DNA from: a virus
Taxonomy: Duplodnaviria > Heunggongvirae > Uroviricota > Caudoviricetes
DNA: 39,148 bases
IMG/VR virus record: IMGVR_UViG_2534681836_000019
Reading direction: 5' to 3' (one strand)
Within the stretch, counting starts at the first letter, position 1, and the number at the start of each line of letters is the position of its first letter. A program made the position numbers and the translations under genes. The notes beneath the pieces were generated by a model. It was not told where the DNA came from. It saw nothing but the letters and a program-made list of their open reading frames with translations, and ran no database searches. Below, one piece after another: positions 3,182 to 39,148 of this stretch.

Positions 3182-6597
<3,416 letters not shown>

Positions 6598-23193: not shown

Positions 23194-23366
23194 TCAGATT
23201 AAATTAATCTTGACATCATAGCTTTCAAGACCCGTCATTTTTTCCCGTGCGGTAAACTGAATACTGGTAACTTCTTTCCCGGTCTTTTTCTTAAGTTCAA
23301 TAATTTTTTTGTTATATATTCAGAAATATCTGCTTCTGCTTTTGTTTTTAAGTTTTCAATATTCAT
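23194..23366 (-). pseudogene. gnsB: gnsB-like small protein gene, reading frame broken by a 1-nt deficit in a homopolymer
   Basis: Frame 1 gives MNIENLKTKAEADISEYITKK then stops early; one extra A in the 7-T run at 23304-23310 (plus strand) would give ...IIELKKKTGKEVTSIQFTAREKMTGLESYDVKINLI*, close to GnsA/GnsB as recalled. Confidence 0.6.
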
Positions 23367-23537
23367 CATTTCCTCTTTTAGTCTGTTATGACTTTCCAGT
23401 TACACAGTAAGTCGATTATATGGTGCAAACGTGTAAAAGATAAGATGAAACATCGCAATAATCAACATACGATAGTCTAAATTTTACACAAACAGACAAA
23501 GAAAATTTTCCTGAATTATCAATACAATAGCATCAAA

Positions 23538-23729
23538 TCAACTCAAGAGCCTTATTGCTGCTTCCAGAATTTCTTCTGAAGTAACATGTCGATCCGCGGC
23601 TACATAAATGACTTTATGATCTCCGGTCAGAGATGGAAACCCTGCGGCCATTACAGTAAGGTGTGTTTTTTCGCCATTTGGATATTCACGCATGATGGTG
23701 TTAACTCCAGTCATCGCTGGCACTACCAC
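23538..23729 (-). CDS. Hypothetical small protein (63 aa)
   Basis: ORF between the gnsB-like gene and cspI-like gene; function unknown. Confidence 0.35.
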   Translation of the reverse strand: MVVPAMTGVNTIMREYPNGEKTHLTVMAAGFPSLTGDHKVIYVAADRHVTSEEILEAAIRLLS

Positions 23730-24037
23730 TGCTGGTTCAGAGTTAAAAAAACTATGATTTTTTCATGATGTTACCGTAGTATGTGAGTATCCATCGAATA
23801 GATACCAAGCAAAAAAGCTCCCGAAGGAGCCTTCATTTTCACTTTTTTAAATCCAACGACAGACGGCTGGCATTTAAGTATTGTGAAATATTATCAAATG
23901 TAATCATCATTGATTTACAAAAGATACATTTTGCCCCGAAAGGATTCATGTCAGAAACATCAAAAGATGATGTTCTATACTGGGAACCATGACAACACGG
24001 GCATCTAAAGTGAATATGGTTTGTAATATTGTCTACC

Positions 24038-30598: not shown

Positions 30599-30669
30599 AG
30601 CCTGCTTCTCCTGTCAACGCAAAGCAGAAGTGTCACCTTCGGTGCGAAACAGAGATGTCATGCTTTGGT

Positions 30670-30957
30670 TCAGAGAATGCGTTTGACCGCCTCGCTATAT
30701 ACTTCCGAGCGTTCTCTTTTCCCAACAGAAATCACGAAAACGACAACTTTCTCGTCTATAACCTGGTATACAAGGCGATAGCCTGAAGACCGGAGCTTAA
30801 TCTTGTAACAATCAGGCATACCACGGAGCTTGTTTGCTTCAATCCGGGGTGACTCAAGTACTTCAACCAGCTTCTTTTTCAACTGTTCACGTACCGTCGA
30901 GCCCAGCTTTCGCCATTCCTTTAGTGCCCGCTCGTCAAAATCCAGAAAATACGCCAT
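30670..30957 (-). CDS. relE: mRNA interferase toxin RelE
   Basis: 95-aa ORF MAYFLDFDERALKEWRKLGSTVREQLKKKL..., recognised as E. coli RelE. Confidence 0.95.
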   Translation of the reverse strand: MAYFLDFDERALKEWRKLGSTVREQLKKKLVEVLESPRIEANKLRGMPDCYKIKLRSSGYRLVYQVIDEKVVVFVISVGKRERSEVYSEAVKRIL

Positions 30958-31196
30958 CAGAGTTCATCCAGCGTCACACGTACTGGCTTAGGATTACGAA
31001 GCCGTTCTTTCACTATCTCCACAAGTTCAGCATCTTCATCACTCAGGAGTGTCTGTTTGAACGGCAAGCGTTCATTGTCAGCGATATACTCGAGCATGAG
31101 ACGAAGCGCTTCAGAAGGAGTTACACCCATTTTTTCAAGCGCGGCGTAAGAACGCGCTTTAAGTTCATCGTCAATACGCAGGTTAATGCTACCCAT
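30957..31196 (-). CDS. relB: Antitoxin RelB
   Basis: 79-aa ORF MGSINLRIDDELKARSYAALEKMGVTPSEALRLM..., recognised as RelB; stop overlaps relE start. Confidence 0.95.
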   Translation of the reverse strand: MGSINLRIDDELKARSYAALEKMGVTPSEALRLMLEYIADNERLPFKQTLLSDEDAELVEIVKERLRNPKPVRVTLDEL

Positions 31197-31204
31197 GTCT
31201 TACA

Positions 31205-31265
31205 CCTCTTGTAATTACAAATGTCATTACAAGTATCGCACTACAACATGCTTAGGGCAAGTCAC
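31205..31265 (-). promoter_or_regulatory. relBE promoter/operator region (relO-like inverted repeats)
   Basis: Minus-strand CTTGTAATGACATTTGTAATTACAAG (31208-31233) contains inverted TTGTAAT repeats just upstream of the relB start. Confidence 0.6.
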
Positions 31266-31526
31266 GAAGGAAGTCAGAAAGTAGTCGTAAGAACGGTGAT
31301 CACTGTCCGCTTTGTGCCAGGAGCAGCCATTGCTAAGTCCATCCTGTATTGTGCAGGTCAGCTCGTTTTTAAAGAGTCCGGCCATCATCTTACTGGTACA
31401 GACACCATATACTTTGTGACGGTCAGGCTACATATGCACAACTCAACTTATTCATCTATTTTTTGCTTTAGCATGTCAGTGTTGCTTTCTCGTCGGCGGG
31501 TGAGCGGTGACCTGACCTGTCGATAA
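31221..31526 (+). CDS. Hypothetical ORF (101 aa) in the relB-flxA divergent intergenic region; may be non-coding
   Basis: ORF only; its ATG lies inside the rel operator; no RBS or motif support. Confidence 0.2.
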   Translation: MSLQVSHYNMLRASHEGSQKVVVRTVITVRFVPGAAIAKSILYCAGQLVFKESGHHLTGTDTIYFVTVRLHMHNSTYSSIFCFSMSVLLSRRRVSGDLTCR

Positions 31527-31680
31527 AGGAACGTAGCACGTTTTATGCAACACCCGCATGCGGCAGAAAATTATTGCCGAACGTTTACCCCTGTCAACAA
31601 GCTTTACTTTCTGAGGCGCGCCAGCCCGCGAGGAAAACAATCTGAACATCAAACAATTAATGACACAAGAAATACGATTA

Positions 31681-31707
31681 AAGATTTTTTTGTGCATGCC
31701 GATAGTG
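31681..31707 (+). promoter_or_regulatory. Sigma-28 (FliA)-type promoter for flxA
   Basis: TAAAGATT (31681-31688), 11-nt spacer, GCCGATAG (31700-31707), close to consensus TAAAGTTT-N11-GCCGATAA; about 20 nt upstream of the flxA start. Confidence 0.6.
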
Positions 31708-31728
31708 CTTTTTTAAAAGGAGAAATCT

Positions 31729-32060
31729 ATGTCTGTCACAATTCAGGGAAATACCTCAACCGTTATTTCAAACAACTCCGCCCCGGAAGGAACATCAGAA
31801 ATAGCCAAAATCACAAGACAAATTCAGGTGCTGACTGAAAAGCTTGGGAAAATCTCATCGGAAGAGGGGATGACGACACAGCAGAAAAAAGAATGGCTGC
31901 ATTGGTACAGAAGCAAATTGAAAGCCTCTGGGCTCAACTGGAGCAGTTGTTAAGGCAGCAGGCAGAGAAAAAGAATGAAGACGCGACAGTTCAGCCTGAT
32001 AAAAAAGAAGAGAAAAAAGACGATACAAATACCGCTGGCACCATTGATATTTACGTCTAA
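31729..32060 (+). pseudogene. flxA: flxA, reading frame interrupted by a 1-nt deficit in an A6 run (intact ORF is 31729-31953, 74 aa)
   Basis: Frame 1 MSVTIQGNTSTVISNN...TTQQKKE then shifts; the -1 frame continues MAALVQKQIESLWAQLEQLLRQQAEKKNEDATVQPDKKEEKKDDTNTAGTIDIYV* to 32060; one extra A at 31885-31890 restores a 110-aa product. Confidence 0.65.
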
Positions 32061-32075
32061 GTGACAGCCGTATTG

Positions 32076-32100
32076 TGGCCCTCATCGGGCCACTTTTCGC
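32076..32100 (+). terminator. Candidate rho-independent terminator downstream of flxA
   Basis: gtggccc-tcatc-gggccac hairpin followed by TTTTCGCC. Confidence 0.45.
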
Positions 32101-32444
32101 CATCAGCCTTTTCTTTAAAGACATATTATCTTTGTATCATTTCTGATAGTTAACATTACAAGATATAAGTAATGGACGCACTCCCAATTAGTCTATTTAA
32201 ATCGCCACGAGTTTAACTGACAACCCATGATCAATTATGAATTGCAACTATTTCTGTAGTCACTTTTGTGGGGACAGTCCACAAAACTGCCAACTTCCGC
32301 TTCTTGCTCTTAGCGGACATTAGCATAGGCTATTTGCCATAACGCCTCATTACGCGCACCGCCCAGACTGACTCAGCGCGTTTCTGGCATATCCCCGGTA
32401 AAACAAGTAACAAACCACCCGAAAATGAACACCAGAAACGCGAC

Positions 32445-33840
32445 TTAAGAATCTACCCTATGAATGGATATGCACTCAACCGAATCGATCTTGGTTTCAA
32501 TCTTTTTTATCGGGATCAGGCTTCTTTTTAGGTAACTTCGGGGGCTTAACTTGCTGATGACTTTGCGTTCGGCGCGTAAGCCAGGGATGGTCAGCTTTAG
32601 GTTTAACATAGTATTTTGAGCGTAAATCAATACGGGCATTATCCACTCGTTCATGGACACTCTTTTCATCATCCAGTGGTATAGGCTCCGGGCCATCAAC
32701 ATACTTTTCCCAGCCCAGCGCTTTCCCGTCATACAGAACGTTAATTTCACCGTCAAAGTTCTCGCATACAGTAACAACCGAATGCCTAAGTCGATATCCC
32801 CGGCCCTCACTGCGTACCTGAAACGCACTGCTTTTGTACTGGAAAGTGAGATTTTTAGACAGAACGCGCTTCGCCTGTAGGCTGAAGATATAACCCAGTT
32901 CCTCTTCAGAATGGTGCACATCAAGATGAGCATTATCAGTAGTACGAGGCGACGTAGCGAACCGGTTGTTATAGGCTTCAATAAAGGTCGGCAACCATGC
33001 ATTTGCTGTTTCAATATCACTGATATTCTGAAGCCGCATTTCTTTGACCAGCCTGTCCTGTAGTGTCTGATTGGCGCGCTCTACCCGCCCTTTTGCCTGC
33101 GGGCTGTTGGCATGGATTGGCTCGATGCCCAGTGTCTTTATCGCACGAGTGAACTGGGTACAGCTCACCTTCCCGCTCTGGGTTATTTACCCTGAATATA
33201 CTGTGTCTATCAGAGTAGAGAGCGAGCGGTACGCCATGATCATTAAGGTAACCCCGGAGGGTTTCCATGTAAGCCCGGGTTGTTTCAGCAGGCACAAAAC
33301 GCAACGCCATCAACGCACTGGTGGCATCATCAATGAAAACGATCAGTGTACATCTGGGGCCTCGATTTTCAAACCAGTCATGAGGTGAGCCATCAATCTG
33401 GATCAGTTCACCGTAAGATGGTCGTCGCATGCGGCGTTGATATATACGGGCAATTTTACGACGGCGTTCACGCCATACCCCCTCTTCTATCATCCACTTT
33501 CTGAGAGTTTCAACGGATAAAGATAAACCGTGTATCTCACGCAATTTTTCGCACGCAAACGTAGGTCCAAAATCAGCGTAACGGCCTTTGAGGAGTGAAA
33601 TTACTGTTGCTCTGAATTCAGTAGAAAAGGAATTATTAGGACGCTTTCCACGTCGGGGGGAAACCAGACCAGAAGGCCCTTCATTTCTATACCGTTGCAC
33701 CAGACGTTTAACCTGCCGAATAGAAATGCCAATGCGTGCCGCAGCTTGTTCCTGAGTAATATGTCGATTAATTGACTCCTGAATAATCTGAAGTCGGTGG
33801 AGTCCTTATGACTCATCGTAACAGTCTCTTTGATCATGAA
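32445..33840 (-). mobile_element. IS-like element remnant: HTH plus rve-type (DDE integrase core) transposase gene, split across at least two frames
   Basis: Minus-strand ORFs 33017-33700 (HTH-like IGISIRQVKRLVQRY, then IQIDGSPHDW...YSDRHSIF) and 32497-33168 (GRVERANQTLQD); frame break near 33150-33170 inside the catalytic core; N-terminal start also out of frame; ends not defined. Confidence 0.7.
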
Positions 33841-34206
33841 AAATCCCCCAGAGAATTGTCTGGGGACATTTTAGAATGGTTCAAAGGGGACATTACAGCT
33901 TGGTGTTAACACATCATAGCCCCTCCATTGCCTTCCGGCGGTTATCGGGCTACTATAATGTTGTCTAGGCATTACAGTGGAGCCCTTGGTTGATTGATAA
34001 AAAAATCTCCAGGGGCTTTCTGCTGTATACCGTCCACAAAACGCTTTCGGCATACAGCCTCAAGCGCCCGCAGCTATTCCAACGACTTTCGTATCTGCAA
34101 CAATCCTTTTATTCGCACGGCTAATTCCTCTGGTTAGCTCTTATCGCCTGCAAATAAATTTTTAACCTTTCCGTTTGATTTAAATTCCAGAAATGGAGAC
34201 TTTGTC

Positions 34207-35415
34207 ATGTCTTACAATCGACAGCCTGTCGCAGAAGATCCTATGCAGATATGGGGCGCTGTTGGTGTCCTTCTTATCCTGCTGCTATTCGTTATATGGT
34301 TATTCTTGCCGGAAGTGGTTTACGCCAGCTGCCTGATTCTTCATACCTTATGGGGACTGGTTGACTGGGGACCATTTCATAACTATGCAGCACCACGATA
34401 CAACCTGCTTGCCATGACCGGTAACAACGCCGCCAACATAAGCTATAGCCAGTGGGTTAACGTCATGGAGCAGACCATAGGTATTCTGTGGATGTACCTC
34501 TTACCTGTGACACTCTGGTGTTTGTGGGAGTGGTATCAACATCCGGGACAAAGTCGTTTCACCCGCAGACCAGTAGATATTACCCGACTGCCACACATCT
34601 TTGCTTCGTTGTCCCCTGCTATCGCCCCTGTACTGGCAGATGGTGATCCGGAAAAACTCTTTCATGGTGGCAAACGACCTGAACGGCGGGTTGCTCTCAC
34701 CCCGGAAGCATTTGTCGAGCAGCATACTCTCATCACCAATATGCAGCTCGATGTTGCAGCTGCAAGACGATGTTTCATGGCCCAGTTGGGTAAACCTTTA
34801 ACGTCCTGGAAAGACATGGCACCACATGAAAAAGCGCTCTTTGCCATATTTGGTCTTCAGTATTTCCTGGATGATCGTAAGGCAGCATTAAAGCTCATGG
34901 ATACACTGAACCTCTCATGCAGAATTAAAAGCAAACGGGACAGTGGGAAATTCTGTACCCCTGTTTATTCACTGGCCAAATCAGCTTTCCAGAGAGTGAT
35001 TAAAAGCAACGGAGCACAGCAATGGCTGAAACAACATCGCTACGTCCGCAGTGGGCTGGTCTGGCTGTATGCACATGACCTGCGGCTTACGCCACCCAAC
35101 TGGATTTGGCTGAAAGGCGTGGACAGGACGCTGTTTTATGCATTACACCGCGCCAATACCACGAAAGGATTTATTGAAGGCGCTGGCGTGGTGGCCGTTG
35201 CACGTGCAGAGGCCGAAGCCATGCGTTTTGGTCTTCCCTGCCCTGAACCCTGTGTTGATGAAGCGGTGGAAGGCTTACGGCGGGATATGCTCAGTCTCGG
35301 TCTTATCTGGGATGAACCACAACCAGATCGCGACCGGAAACGCCGCATCCTGACCAACTGGTCCCTCACCGACGACATCCTACCCCGCACACCTGCTACA
35401 GACAACGAATTCTGA
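34207..35415 (+). CDS. trbA: TrbA-like inner membrane protein (DotM/IcmP-like type IVB coupling complex component)
   Basis: 402-aa ORF with N-terminal transmembrane helices; first of three translationally coupled genes whose sizes (402/356/763 aa) match R64 trbABC as recalled. Confidence 0.6.
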   Translation: MSYNRQPVAEDPMQIWGAVGVLLILLLFVIWLFLPEVVYASCLILHTLWGLVDWGPFHNYAAPRYNLLAMTGNNAANISYSQWVNVMEQTIGILWMYLLPVTLWCLWEWYQHPGQSRFTRRPVDITRLPHIFASLSPAIAPVLADGDPEKLFHGGKRPERRVALTPEAFVEQHTLITNMQLDVAAARRCFMAQLGKPLTSWKDMAPHEKALFAIFGLQYFLDDRKAALKLMDTLNLSCRIKSKRDSGKFCTPVYSLAKSAFQRVIKSNGAQQWLKQHRYVRSGLVWLYAHDLRLTPPNWIWLKGVDRTLFYALHRANTTKGFIEGAGVVAVARAEAEAMRFGLPCPEPCVDEAVEGLRRDMLSLGLIWDEPQPDRDRKRRILTNWSLTDDILPRTPATDNEF

Positions 35416-35433
35416 TTATCCGGAGAACTGAAA

Positions 35434-36504
35434 ATGACAATCGAGTACTTTGCAACACGCATTGCAAAACATATTTCCGTGCAGGCAATCTGGCCGGATG
35501 GCAGGACAGAAATTATTGCCGTCCTTCCACGGGATGCCCTGTCAGGGCTGGTAACACGAAATAATCAACTGATTCATATAGCCTTTGACGCCATGGGCAC
35601 CCGTAACAGAGAAACCGTCCTGATTGATAAACAGGAGCATAACGCTGACCAGATACTTACAGCTATTGATTCCTGCCTGCGCCTTGAATATCTGATGGAA
35701 CGCCGCTTCAGCAGAACACCTTTGTTCCGTGGCATAATCGCCAGCGTTGTGCTGTTCGTAATGGCAACGATTGGCTTCTCTCTGTTCCGCTATGTTGATC
35801 GTGTATTCTGGGATGATACAACGCCTGAAGCAGTACAGACAGCAGGTGAGCCACGACTGCTTCCCCCTCACCTGAATCACACTGTGCCATTAAATGAAGG
35901 CATTCAACTCCCGGTTCCCCCGAAAAAAGACGTCCAGGTACCGGAGAAAACAATCACAAGCAAAAATCCGGAAGCCGCAGCTGCGCGACATAATCTGGCT
36001 ACTGTTCTGAAGCGGAACGCCGATCGGGGCATGTTTACCATCAACCTGTCATCCGGTCATGAACGAACCCTGTTCGCATTTCTCGATCCTGCCTGTCCTA
36101 ACTGCAGACTTCTGGAGCCGGCCTTAAAACGCCTGGCCAGCGACTTCAATGTCGTTATCTACCCGGTTTCAGTTATTGGTGGAGAGGAATCCACCGACCG
36201 TGTGGCACCACTGCTGTGTGAAAAAGATGCTCAGAAACGTGCTGCCAGCTGGCACCGACTGTATTCCGCAGATAACGGAATGATGACGCCATCAGAAGAA
36301 ACAACGCCTGCAGATGAAACATGCCTGAAAGCAGCCAGAGCTGCGATTGATGTTAACAATGTCGCCTTCCGTAAGTTCGGATTTGCCGGTACCCCATGGG
36401 TGCTGTCCGACACGGGCTGGCATCTGCCTACTGGAATTCTGCAGGAAACTGGCACGCTTAATTTATTCCTGAAAACCACCGACAGCGAGTCTGGCCATGA
36501 GTGA
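35434..36504 (+). CDS. trbB: TrbB-like thioredoxin-fold protein (DsbC-like thiol:disulfide interchange)
   Basis: 356-aa ORF with central transmembrane segment and CxxC active-site motif (FLDPACPNC); stop overlaps trbC start. Confidence 0.65.
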   Translation: MTIEYFATRIAKHISVQAIWPDGRTEIIAVLPRDALSGLVTRNNQLIHIAFDAMGTRNRETVLIDKQEHNADQILTAIDSCLRLEYLMERRFSRTPLFRGIIASVVLFVMATIGFSLFRYVDRVFWDDTTPEAVQTAGEPRLLPPHLNHTVPLNEGIQLPVPPKKDVQVPEKTITSKNPEAAAARHNLATVLKRNADRGMFTINLSSGHERTLFAFLDPACPNCRLLEPALKRLASDFNVVIYPVSVIGGEESTDRVAPLLCEKDAQKRAASWHRLYSADNGMMTPSEETTPADETCLKAARAAIDVNNVAFRKFGFAGTPWVLSDTGWHLPTGILQETGTLNLFLKTTDSESGHE

Positions 36505-38788
36505 ACATCGCGTTAACCCCGAGCTTTTACACCGTACAGCCTGGGGAAATCCTGTCTGGAATGCACTCCAGAGTCTCAATATCTATGGCTTTTACCTGGT
36601 GGCAAGTCTTGTGGCCAGTTTTATCTGGCCACTTGCATTACCGGCATGTCTGTTGTTCACACTGATAACGATGCTGGTATTTAGTCTGCAGCGATGGCGC
36701 TGCCCTCTTCGTATGCCCATGACGCTGGAATGTGCTGACCCGTCACAGGACAGAATGATTAAAAGAAGTCTTTTCAGCTTCTGGCCAACCCTGTTCCAGT
36801 ATGAGGTCATTCTGGAATCACCGGCCAGCGGCATATTCTATGTTGGTTATCAACGCGTCAGGGATATTGGCAGGGAGTTATGGCTGAGTATGGACGATCT
36901 GACCCGCCATATAATGTTTTTCGCCACCACCGGTGGCGGTAAAACGGAAACCATCTTTGCCTGGGCGATTAACCCACTTTGCTGGGCAAGAGGATTCACC
37001 CTTGTCGATGGCAAGGCACAGAATGATACGGCAAGAACGATCTGGTATCTGGCCAGACGCTTTGGACGTGAAGACGATGTGGAAGTCATTAACTTCATGA
37101 ACGGAGGAAAATCCCGCAGTGAAATCATTCTGAGTGGTGAAAAAACGCGTCCTCAGTCAAATACCTGGAATCCCTTCTGTTACAGCACTGAGGCATTCAC
37201 AGCGGAGACAATGCAGTCAATGCTGCCCCAGAACGTCCAGGGGGGCGAGTGGCAGTCCCGGGCCATTGCCATGAATAAGGCACTGGTATTTGGTACTAAA
37301 TTCTGGTGTGTGCGCGAAGGCAAAACAATGTCGCTGCAGATGCTCCGTGAACATATGACTCTCGAAGGGATGGCCAAACTTTACTGTCGTGGCCTCGATG
37401 ATCAGTGGCCGGAAGAAGCTATCGCACCGTTACGTAACTACCTTCAGGACGTTCCCGGTTTCGACCTGTCGCTGGTCAGGACACCATCAGCCTGGACGGA
37501 AGAACCCAGAAAACAACATGCTTATCTCTCCGGGCAGTTTTCTGAAACTTTCAGCACATTCACGGAAGCATTCGGGGATATTTTTGCTGAAGATTCCGGT
37601 GATATCGATATCCGTGACAGCATTCACAGCGACAGGATTCTGATGGTAATGATCCCCGCTCTGGATACATCAGCGCATACAACGTCTGCTCTTGGACGAA
37701 TGTTTATCACCCAGAAAAGTATGATTCTCGCCCGTGATTTGGGCTACCGCCTCGAAGGAACTGATTCCGATGCACTGGAAGTCAAAAAATATAAGGGGCG
37801 TTTCCCTTATCTGTGTTTCCTTGATGAAGTGGGGGCATACTATACGGACCGTATTGCTGTGGAAGCCACTCAGGTGCGTTCACTGGATTTTGCTCTGATT
37901 TTGATGGCACAGGACCAGGAACGTATAGAAGGACAGACAACAGCCACGAATACTGCAACACTGATGCAGAACACGGGGACAAAATTTGCCGGCAGGATTG
38001 TCAGCGAGGGTAGTACAGCCAGAACGCTGAAAAGCGCCGCCGGTGAAGAAGCCAGGGCGAGAATGAACAACCTACAGCGTCAGGACGGCATATTTGGTGA
38101 ATCATGGATTGACAGCCCACAAATCAGCATCCTAATGGAAAGCAAGATAAATGTTCAGGAGTTGATTGAACTTCATCCTGGCGAGTTCTTTTCTATTTTC
38201 CGGGGAGAAACCGTACCATCAGCATCATTCTTCATCCCTGACGATGAGAAAAGCTGCAGCAGCGATCCCGTGGTTATAAACAGGTATATCAGCGTGGATG
38301 CGCCACGCCTGGACCGTCTCCGCCGTCTTGTTCCCCGTACTACTCAACGTCGAATACCGTCACCGGAAAATGTCAGTGCCATCATTGGCGTCCTGACTGC
38401 AAAACCCTCCAGAAAAAGACGAAAAATTCGCACAGAGCCGCACACGATCGTGGATACATTCCAGCAACGCATTGCAGGACGTCAGGCGGCTATGGCAATG
38501 CTGGAAGAGTACGACACGGATATCAACGCACGTGAAAGTGCCTTGTGGGAAACAGCGGTGAATACGCTAAAAACGACCACACGGGAAGATCGACGAATTC
38601 GCTATATCACGCTGAACAGACCAGAACTACCTGAAACAAAAGAGGAAAATCAGATATCAGTGAGAGCAGAAAGAGCAGGTATAAACCTGTTAACGCTTCC
38701 ACAGGACAATAACCACCCGACAGGGCGTCCTGTAAACGGGTTTCATCATAAAAAAACCAACCGTCCGGACTGGGACGGAATGTACTGA
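36497..38788 (+). CDS. trbC: TrbC-like type IV coupling protein ATPase (DotL/IcmO, VirD4/TraG family)
   Basis: 763-aa ORF; N-terminal transmembrane helices, Walker A FFATTGGGKTE, Walker B-like LCFLDEVG. Confidence 0.7.
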   Translation: MSEHRVNPELLHRTAWGNPVWNALQSLNIYGFYLVASLVASFIWPLALPACLLFTLITMLVFSLQRWRCPLRMPMTLECADPSQDRMIKRSLFSFWPTLFQYEVILESPASGIFYVGYQRVRDIGRELWLSMDDLTRHIMFFATTGGGKTETIFAWAINPLCWARGFTLVDGKAQNDTARTIWYLARRFGREDDVEVINFMNGGKSRSEIILSGEKTRPQSNTWNPFCYSTEAFTAETMQSMLPQNVQGGEWQSRAIAMNKALVFGTKFWCVREGKTMSLQMLREHMTLEGMAKLYCRGLDDQWPEEAIAPLRNYLQDVPGFDLSLVRTPSAWTEEPRKQHAYLSGQFSETFSTFTEAFGDIFAEDSGDIDIRDSIHSDRILMVMIPALDTSAHTTSALGRMFITQKSMILARDLGYRLEGTDSDALEVKKYKGRFPYLCFLDEVGAYYTDRIAVEATQVRSLDFALILMAQDQERIEGQTTATNTATLMQNTGTKFAGRIVSEGSTARTLKSAAGEEARARMNNLQRQDGIFGESWIDSPQISILMESKINVQELIELHPGEFFSIFRGETVPSASFFIPDDEKSCSSDPVVINRYISVDAPRLDRLRRLVPRTTQRRIPSPENVSAIIGVLTAKPSRKRRKIRTEPHTIVDTFQQRIAGRQAAMAMLEEYDTDINARESALWETAVNTLKTTTREDRRIRYITLNRPELPETKEENQISVRAERAGINLLTLPQDNNHPTGRPVNGFHHKKTNRPDWDGMY

Positions 38789-38858
38789 ACAGTGGCCGCG
38801 CCGGATTCGAACAAACGCAACTATTGCACAGTTCTAAACCTGACTGCCCCTTAGCCAG

Positions 38859-39148
38859 TAGACTGGCCCCCTGAATCTCCAGACAACCAGTATCACTTAT
38901 TTAAGTGATAGTCTTAATACTAGTTTTTAGACTAGTCATTGGAGAGCAGATGATTGATGTCTTAGGACCGGAGAAACGCAGACGGCGTACCACACAGGAA
39001 AAGATCGCAATTGTTCAGCAGAGCTTTGAACCAGGGATGACGGTCTCCCTCGTTGCCCGGCAACATGGTGTAGCAGCCAGCCAGTTATTTCTCTGGCGTA
39101 AGCAATACCAGGAAGGAAGTCTTACTGCTGTCGCCGCCGGAGAACAGG
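38859..39148 (+). mobile_element. IS2 left end (partial; continues beyond window end)
   Basis: TAGACTGGCCCCCTGAATCTCCAGACAACC... matches the IS2 terminal inverted repeat region as recalled, followed by the insC start. Confidence 0.85.
38950..39148 (+). CDS. insC: IS2 transposase OrfA (InsC), partial
   Basis: [66 protein letters not shown], truncated by window end. Confidence 0.85.

What the first reader, a model, noticed from the sequence alone, without database searches (positions are those of the whole stretch)
31681..32060. flxA with a sigma-28-type promoter but a frameshifted coding region
The promoter elements TAAAGATT-N11-GCCGATAG closely match the FliA consensus, so the gene is probably flagellar-regulon controlled. 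The ORF shifts frame in an A6 run after codon 56; the downstream frame carries a coherent continuation (MAALVQKQIESLWAQLEQLL...) ending at 32060. One extra A gives 110 aa.
Basis: partly seen in the sequence, partly recalled or inferred. Interest (0 to 1): 0.4.

Follow-up and report, generated by a model that had tools for sequence, protein, structure and literature searches.

The report
flxA frameshift, probably a draft-assembly error
This is the well-known E. coli gene flxA with its already mapped flagellar (sigma-28) promoter, and the one-base frameshift in it is most likely one of many single-base errors in this 2012 draft contig rather than biology.

Summary
The window is contig AIGM01000026.1 of the E. 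coli DEC9C draft genome. The region 31679-32097 is flxA, a gene first described in the Qin prophage. Its promoter, ribosome-binding site, start codon and terminator hairpin are base-for-base identical to K-12. The promoter 28-mer equals the FliA ChIP-seq site published for K-12 flxA.

The A6 run (31885-31890) is the normal state. The missing base is one A of GAA-ATG (codons 55/56; window 31892-31893). Restoring it gives K-12 FlxA exactly (110 aa, ...KKEMAAL..., not ...KKRMAAL...).

None of 1,197 complete E. coli records that carry this stretch has the window's version. The 74-aa product is on record from this contig only.

Against the complete genome of the sister strain DEC9B, the contig shows 23 substitutions but 9 single-base indels over 35.6 kb. 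These also break gpJ, gnsB, ynfN and an IS transposase. Four of them shorten homopolymers of 6-8 bases.

I rate a sequencing or assembly artefact at about 0.7, a genuine private pseudogene at about 0.27, and recoding at about 0.02. Interest is low.

The parts
31679..31686 (+). -35-type element of the FliA (sigma-28) promoter, TAAAGATT
   Evidence: Identical to K-12 and to the published FliA ChIP-seq motif for flxA (PMC4183435).
31698..31705 (+). -10-type element of the FliA promoter, GCCGATAG, 11 nt after the first element
31717..31722 (+). Shine-Dalgarno sequence AAGGAG, 6 nt before the ATG
   Evidence: Read directly from the sequence. Identical in K-12.
31729..31953 (+). flxA 5' part as it reads in the contig: 55 native FlxA residues plus 19 out-of-frame residues and a stop (74 aa; GenBank EHW47324.1)
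   Evidence: Pfam PF14282 profile positions 2-48, 28.3 bits.
31885..31890 (+). A6 run (Lys53-Lys54). This is the normal length, not the lesion, although it varies (A5 or A7) in some other assemblies
31892..31893 (+). Site of the one-base deletion: AA here, AAA (GAA-ATG) in K-12, O26:H11 11368, KV7, pDEC9B-1 and all other copies examined
   Evidence: 0 of 1,197 complete-genome records have the window's version.
31893..32060 (+). flxA 3' part (residues 56-110 of FlxA plus the stop) in the -1 frame
   Evidence: Pfam PF14282 profile positions 52-96.
32075..32097 (+). GC-rich hairpin GTGGCCC-TCATC-GGGCCAC followed by TTTT, the likely intrinsic terminator of flxA
   Evidence: Seen by eye. The consensus scan did not list it because it has only four Ts. 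This part is inferred.

Best explanation
The locus is flxA, a small gene of unknown function first described in the Qin cryptic prophage of K-12.

How it works:
- RNA polymerase carrying the flagellar sigma factor FliA (sigma-28) recognises TAAAGATT-N11-GCCGATAG. It transcribes a monocistronic mRNA with a strong AAGGAG ribosome-binding site, ending at a hairpin-TTTT about 15 nt after the stop codon.
- The gene is therefore switched on with the late flagellar genes. It is reported to have no obvious role in flagellar synthesis or motility.

The apparent frameshift is the loss of one A from GAA-ATG at codons 55/56. It is most probably a base-calling or consensus error of the DEC9C draft assembly, and the organism most likely encodes the ordinary 110-aa FlxA.

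What is shown and what is inferred:
- Shown: the gene identity, the identity of all signals to K-12, the position of the missing base, its uniqueness, and the excess of single-base indels in this contig.
- Inferred: that this particular indel is one of the errors.
For: Identity of the locus:
- The window equals AIGM01000026.1 of the E. coli DEC9C draft GCA_000249935.2.
- The 411 bases 31660-32070 differ from K-12 by a single gap and nothing else.
- The promoter 28-mer equals the published FliA site of flxA, whose expression is fliA-dependent (PMC4183435; a 28-fold drop in a sigma-F deletion in PMC1935009).

Uniqueness of the deletion:
- 0 of 1,197 complete-genome records that hold the 81-nt stretch match the window exactly. 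All have one more base.
- The exact 74-aa product is on record from one contig only, this one.

Quality of the contig, measured against the complete genome of sister strain DEC9B:
- Window 3251-30612 against the chromosome: 21 mismatches and 4 gaps. All 4 gaps are one-base shortenings of T6, T8, A8 and T7 runs in the window.
- Window 30608-38858 against plasmid pDEC9B-1: 2 mismatches but 5 single-base indels, the flxA one among them.
- flxA is intact on pDEC9B-1 (WP_001301033.1).
- These indels also truncate gpJ, gnsB and ynfN and split the ISEsa1 transposase.
- No complete genome out of 2,144 reproduces window 23250-23800.
- Nine indels against 23 substitutions is far above what closely related genomes normally show.
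- Another draft in the adjacent accession series (AIGE01000015.1; I did not verify the strain or the project) also has flxA broken, by a homopolymer change A6 to A5.
Against: - The missing base lies in a run of only three As, whereas homopolymer miscalls are most typical of longer runs. However, four other indels of this contig are also outside long runs.
- Genuine null alleles of flxA exist. Q51* and Q52* nonsense changes, IS insertions and an A5 allele were each seen in several independent assemblies, including a complete genome (IS1 in H1). A real private mutation in a strain isolated in 1952 is therefore plausible.
- I could not see reads or coverage, and I could not verify the sequencing platform. 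The genome announcement (PMC3370608) is not held.
Confidence: 0.7

Rival explanations
1. The deletion is genuine: DEC9C carries a private flxA pseudogene. The FliA promoter still fires. The mRNA gives a 74-aa product (55 FlxA residues plus 19 unrelated ones). The C-terminal half is not made, because the internal ATG at 31893 has no ribosome-binding site.
For: [quoted passage not shown]
- It is present in only 1,204 of 5,426 complete genomes.
- It is independently inactivated elsewhere: Q51* in L003 and L010-L012, Q52* in L024, IS insertions in H1, L017 and L026, and an A5 allele in four assemblies including the complete genome CP051349.1.
- The sister strain DEC9B has lost the chromosomal copy altogether.
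Against: - The change is private to one draft contig.
- That contig has nine single-base indels against 23 substitutions relative to its sister strain. Every indel I tested is the odd one out against all other genomes.
- I estimate, as an assumption and not as a tool result, that only about one or two of nine such indels would be real at normal indel-to-substitution ratios.
Confidence: 0.27
2. Recoding: a -1 ribosomal slip, or insertion of an A by RNA polymerase, on the A6 run just upstream restores the frame. Full-length protein (with Arg in place of Glu55) is then made from the frameshifted gene.
For: - The downstream frame is -1 relative to the upstream one, and an A6-G tract lies 1 nt before the lesion.
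- A purine-rich GAGGGG lies about 15 nt upstream of the tract.
Against: - In the zero frame the tract reads G-AAA-AAA-G, so the classical A-AAA-AAG heptamer is out of register (read directly from the sequence).
- The 81 nt from the tract onward fold no better than shuffled sequence (z = 0.12).
- The arrangement is not conserved. 0 of 1,197 other copies need a frameshift.
- Six As are short for efficient transcriptional slippage (general knowledge).
Confidence: 0.02

Closest known systems
flxA (b1566) of the Qin cryptic prophage, E. coli K-12
   Same: Promoter, ribosome-binding site, coding sequence and 3' hairpin are identical base for base over 411 nt apart from one gap. The neighbours are the same: hokD-relE-relB-ydfV-flxA-ydfW. 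The FliA site is the same as in the K-12 ChIP-seq data.
   Different: One A fewer at codons 55/56. K-12 has ydfX-dicC downstream, where the window has an ISEsa1-type element followed by IncI1 trbABC.
flxA on IncI1 plasmid pDEC9B-1 (NZ_CP074761.1) of sister strain DEC9B
   Same: Window 30608-38858 matches relE-relB-ydfV-flxA-ydfW-ISEsa1-trbA-trbB-trbC of the plasmid with only 2 substitutions. It shares the substitutions at 32336, 33478 and 33539 that are absent from the 12 other loci compared.
   Different: The plasmid copy is intact (110 aa, WP_001301033.1). The window differs from it by 5 single-base indels. To the left of relE the window continues into chromosomal prophage (hokD), not into the plasmid's own hok gene.
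dnaX-type programmed -1 frameshift site (A-AAA-AAG with an upstream Shine-Dalgarno-like element and a downstream hairpin)
   Same: An A6-G tract sits just before a point where the -1 frame carries the rest of the protein.
   Different: The heptamer is out of register, there is no stimulatory structure, and homologues have no frameshift. It does not work like one and is not a member.

Membership tests
FlxA-like protein family (Pfam PF14282) | Match to the family profile above the curated cut-off (26.3 bits) | tested here: met
   The restored 110-aa protein scores 53.8 bits over profile positions 2-96. The 74-aa piece scores 28.3 bits (positions 2-48). The 55-aa piece scores 24.1 bits (positions 52-96), just under the cut-off on its own.
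FlxA-like protein family (Pfam PF14282) | Orthology to K-12 FlxA: sequence identity and conserved gene neighbourhood | tested here: met
   100% nucleotide identity apart from one gap. The relE-relB-ydfV-flxA-ydfW order is as in K-12.
FlxA-like protein family (Pfam PF14282) | Uninterrupted reading frame of about 110 codons | tested here: not met
   The frame is broken after codon 55 in the contig as deposited. Whether it is broken in the organism cannot be tested here.
FliA (sigma-28) dependent promoter | Two-block match to TAAAGTTT-N11-GCCGATAA with an 11-nt spacer, suitably placed upstream of the gene | tested here: met
   14 of 16 positions match with an 11-nt spacer, and the block ends 23 nt before the ATG. 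It is the only match in the window at up to 3 mismatches (chance expectation 0.26; 23 of 100 shuffles gave at least one).
FliA (sigma-28) dependent promoter | Experimental FliA binding and fliA-dependent expression | not testable with these tools
   Shown for the identical K-12 sequence: a ChIP-seq peak, and expression 280 versus 2 in a fliA deletion (PMC4183435); -28.4-fold in a deletion and +8.2-fold on induction (PMC1935009). Not measured in DEC9C.
Programmed -1 ribosomal frameshift site | Slippery heptamer X-XXY-YYZ in the zero frame | tested here: not met
   The zero frame reads CAG-AAA-AAA-GAA, so A-AAA-AAG is one register off (and the frame).
Programmed -1 ribosomal frameshift site | Stimulatory downstream RNA structure | tested here: not met
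   MFE -19.2 kcal/mol against a shuffle mean of -19.5; z = 0.12.
Programmed -1 ribosomal frameshift site | The frameshifted arrangement is conserved among homologues | tested here: not met
   0 of 1,197 complete-genome copies share it. All 18 plasmid records that cover at least 80% of the relE-flxA query score 99.7-99.9% with a 1,452-base match in the 12 listed.
Genuine pseudogene | The inactivating change is supported by reads or by an independent assembly of the same strain | not testable with these tools
   No reads are available. The 74-aa product is on record from this contig only.

The most novel reading that the evidence does not exclude
The one-base deletion is real, so DEC9C carries a private null allele of a sigma-28-regulon gene, possibly slightly leaky through -1 slippage on the adjacent A6 tract. 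Taken with the other independent knock-outs seen here (A5, A7, Q51*, Q52*, IS insertions) and with carriage of the relBE-ydfV-flxA module on conjugative plasmids, this would mark flxA as a mobile, repeatedly lost passenger of the flagellar regulon.
Probability: 0.25. Interest if true: 0.2.

Novelty: already known. Interest (0 to 1): 0.07.

Why it matters
It matters little biologically. flxA and its FliA promoter have been characterised since the 1990s, and a single private frameshift in a dispensable gene would be a routine pseudogene even if it were real.

The practical value is as a caution. This contig carries about one single-base indel per 4 kb. Frameshifts called from it (flxA, gpJ, gnsB, ynfN, the ISEsa1 transposase) should not be read as gene decay without read support.

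Tried and rejected
- The KKR junction protein: not present among about 15 billion proteins.
- Programmed frameshift or transcriptional slippage: rejected on register, lack of structure and lack of conservation.
- Independent translation of the 55-aa C-terminal ORF: no Shine-Dalgarno sequence before ATG 31893, and the ORF lies inside the upstream ORF, so I consider it unlikely.
- Sequencing platform of the DEC drafts: the genome announcement (doi 10.1128/JB.00426-12, PMC3370608) is not held and a text search for it with '454' gave nothing useful. The platform remains unverified.
- O26:H11 11368 and KV7 as close references: both are only about 99% identical and too distant to judge errors. The complete genome of the sister strain DEC9B, found by chance, was the useful comparator.
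- The terminator scan did not list the hairpin after flxA because it has only four Ts. I report it from the sequence only.

Full report
**What is in the sequence**

- TAAAGATT at 31679-31686, an 11-nt spacer, and GCCGATAG at 31698-31705.
- AAGGAG at 31717-31722, followed by an ATG at 31729.
- An ORF of 74 codons ending at 31953.
- An overlapping ORF of 55 codons (MAALVQKQIESLW...) from 31893 to 32060 in the -1 frame.
- An A6 run at 31885-31890.
- By eye, a GC-rich hairpin (GTGGCCC-TCATC-GGGCCAC) followed by TTTT at 32075-32097. The consensus scan did not list it because it has only four Ts.

**Origin of the window**

An exact look-up of the 74-aa product finds one protein, EHW47324.1, 'hypothetical protein ECDEC9C_1876 [Escherichia coli DEC9C]', on one contig of 39,148 bases. 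That contig is AIGM01000026.1 of assembly GCA_000249935.2, so the window is that draft contig. DEC9C is an stx-negative O26:H11 ST29 strain isolated in Switzerland in 1952, and its genome is one of the DEC collection drafts (PMC5592225).

**Identity of the gene and promoter**

- The surrounding genes are hokD, relE, relB and ydfV, then this gene, as in the Qin prophage of K-12, where the gene is annotated flxA.
- Aligned with K-12, the 411 bases 31660-32070 are identical except for one gap.
- The K-12 gene translates to 110 aa...QQKKEMAALVQKQ....
- The restored protein matches Pfam PF14282 (FlxA-like) at 53.8 bits. The two window ORFs match the first half (profile positions 2-48) and the second half (52-96) of the profile. 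The downstream frame is therefore FlxA.
- The 28-mer TAAAGATTTTTTTGTGCATGCCGATAGT is printed in Table 2 of Fitzgerald et al. 2014 as the FliA ChIP-seq motif upstream of flxA, with expression 280 in wild type and 2 in a fliA deletion (PMC4183435).
- Zhao et al. 2007 list flxA as falling 28.4-fold in a sigma-F deletion and rising 8.2-fold on induction (PMC1935009).
- In the window, the sigma-28 consensus with up to three mismatches matches only here. The chance expectation is 0.26 and 23 of 100 shuffles gave at least one match, so the count alone is not significant; identity to the K-12 site carries the argument.
- The promoter call is right, but it is established knowledge.

**Where the frameshift really is**

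- K-12 also has A6 at this position.
- The missing base is one A of G-AAA-TG, which reads G-AA-TG in the window at 31892-31893. Codon 55 (GAA, Glu) is still read. Nineteen out-of-frame codons follow it.
- The same placement follows from comparison with O26:H11 11368, KV7, pDEC9B-1 and ten further loci.
That 110-aa sequence does not occur among about 15 billion proteins.

**How common the window's version is**

- flxA is present in 1,204 of 5,426 complete E. coli genomes.
- With an 81-nt query across the site, all 1,197 matching records fall in the 95-99% identity band and none is identical. The listed matches span 82 bases.
- All 18 plasmid records that cover at least 80% of the relE-flxA query score 99.7-99.9% with a 1,452-base match in the 12 listed.
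- The change is private to this contig.

**Real or artefact**

The decisive comparator turned up by chance. The complete genome of DEC9B, a sister strain of the same DEC9 clone, is in RefSeq.

| Window segment | DEC9B replicon | Identity | Mismatches | Gaps |
|---|---|---|---|---|
| 3251-30612 | chromosomal prophage | 99.909% | 21 | 4 |
| 30608-38858 | IncI1 plasmid pDEC9B-1 | 99.915% | 2 | 5 |

- All four chromosomal gaps are one-base shortenings in the window of long homopolymers: T6 at 3572, T8 at 23304, A8 at 23745 and T7 at 23758.
- The five plasmid-segment indels are at 30611, 31892 (flxA), 33160, 33802 and 34112.
- flxA is intact on pDEC9B-1 (WP_001301033.1, the K-12 protein).
- The indels truncate gpJ (1,045 aa against 1,137), gnsB (44 aa with a foreign tail against 57-58) and ynfN (63 against 76 or more) (with 42). 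They also split the ISEsa1 transposase.
- Where I tested it, the window is the odd one out. No complete genome of 2,144 reproduces 23250-23800. The insertion at 33160 is absent from nine other copies.
- Nine single-base indels against 23 substitutions between sister strains, with every tested one private to the draft, is what sequencing or consensus errors look like. Natural divergence would be expected to give perhaps one or two (my estimate, not a tool result).
- A draft in the adjacent accession series (AIGE01000015.1; I did not verify the strain or the project) also has flxA broken, by A6 to A5.
- My recollection is that these drafts involved pyrosequencing. I could not verify this, because the announcement is not in the library.

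**Arguments for a real mutation**

- The affected run is only three As.
- flxA clearly tolerates loss. Other assemblies carry Q51* (L003, L010-L012), Q52* (L024), IS insertions (H1, L017, L026), A5 (four assemblies including the complete genome CP051349.1) and A7 (mostly long-read drafts).
- DEC9B has lost the chromosomal copy.
- I therefore keep about 0.27 for a genuine private pseudogene.

**Recoding**

The downstream frame is -1 and an A6-G tract precedes the lesion, so I checked for recoding.
- In the zero frame the tract reads G-AAA-AAA-G, so the classical A-AAA-AAG heptamer is out of register.
- The downstream 81 nt fold no better than shuffles (z = 0.12).
- No homologue needs a frameshift.
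- I give this about 0.02.

**Verdict**

The gene and promoter are correct and already known. Interest is low. The only decisive test is read support, or Sanger sequencing, at 31891-31896.

Noticed in passing
window 30608-39148 (junctions near 30610, 33939 and 38859): The contig is a composite. 3251-30612 matches the DEC9B chromosome (a lambdoid, Qin-like prophage). 30608-38858 matches IncI1 plasmid pDEC9B-1 (relE-relB-ydfV-flxA-ydfW-ISEsa1-trbA-trbB-trbC). 38859-39148 is an IS2 end. The hokD-relE junction is the ancestral Qin order, while the ISEsa1-trbA junction is plasmid-type. DEC9C therefore has either a plasmid-chromosome cointegrate or a contig joined wrongly through the IS.
   Followed up: partly
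window 3572, 23304, 23745, 23758, 30611, 33160, 33802, 34112: Eight further single-base indels relative to sister strain DEC9B. They truncate gpJ, gnsB and ynfN and split the ISEsa1 transposase. Four are shortenings of homopolymers of 6-8 bases. They are probably draft errors.
   Followed up: yes
L003-L012 and L017-L026 (flxA in other assemblies): flxA is broken in many other public assemblies in different ways: A6 to A5, A6 to A7, a +G insertion, the nonsense changes Q51* and Q52*, and IS insertions. Some are seen in several independent assemblies and are probably real. Others, in long-read drafts, are probably errors.
   Followed up: partly
window 30650-32100; plasmid hits H91-H102: The complete relE-relB-ydfV-flxA module is carried by 18 plasmids in PLSDB at 99.7% identity or more, in Escherichia, Salmonella, Enterobacter and Edwardsiella. 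A FliA-promoter gene therefore travels on plasmids between genera. Six plasmid places were also found in complete E. coli genomes.
   Followed up: partly
L015 27197-29304 (DEC9B chromosome): In DEC9B the chromosomal prophage lacks relBE-ydfV-flxA. After hokD come about 620 bases with no match to the window or to pDEC9B-1, then IS2 and a DUF4209 gene. The module sits on the plasmid next to the plasmid's own hok gene.
   Followed up: partly
window 31570-31597, minus strand: A near-consensus sigma-70-type promoter (TTGACA, 16 nt, AATAAT; 11 of 12) lies between ydfV and flxA. It points leftward, antisense to ydfV and towards relB.
   Followed up: no
PMC5592225 versus NZ_CP074761.1: [quoted passage not shown] The complete DEC9B genome has a 161-kb IncI1 plasmid, and this DEC9C contig contains 8 kb of nearly identical plasmid sequence.
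   Followed up: partly
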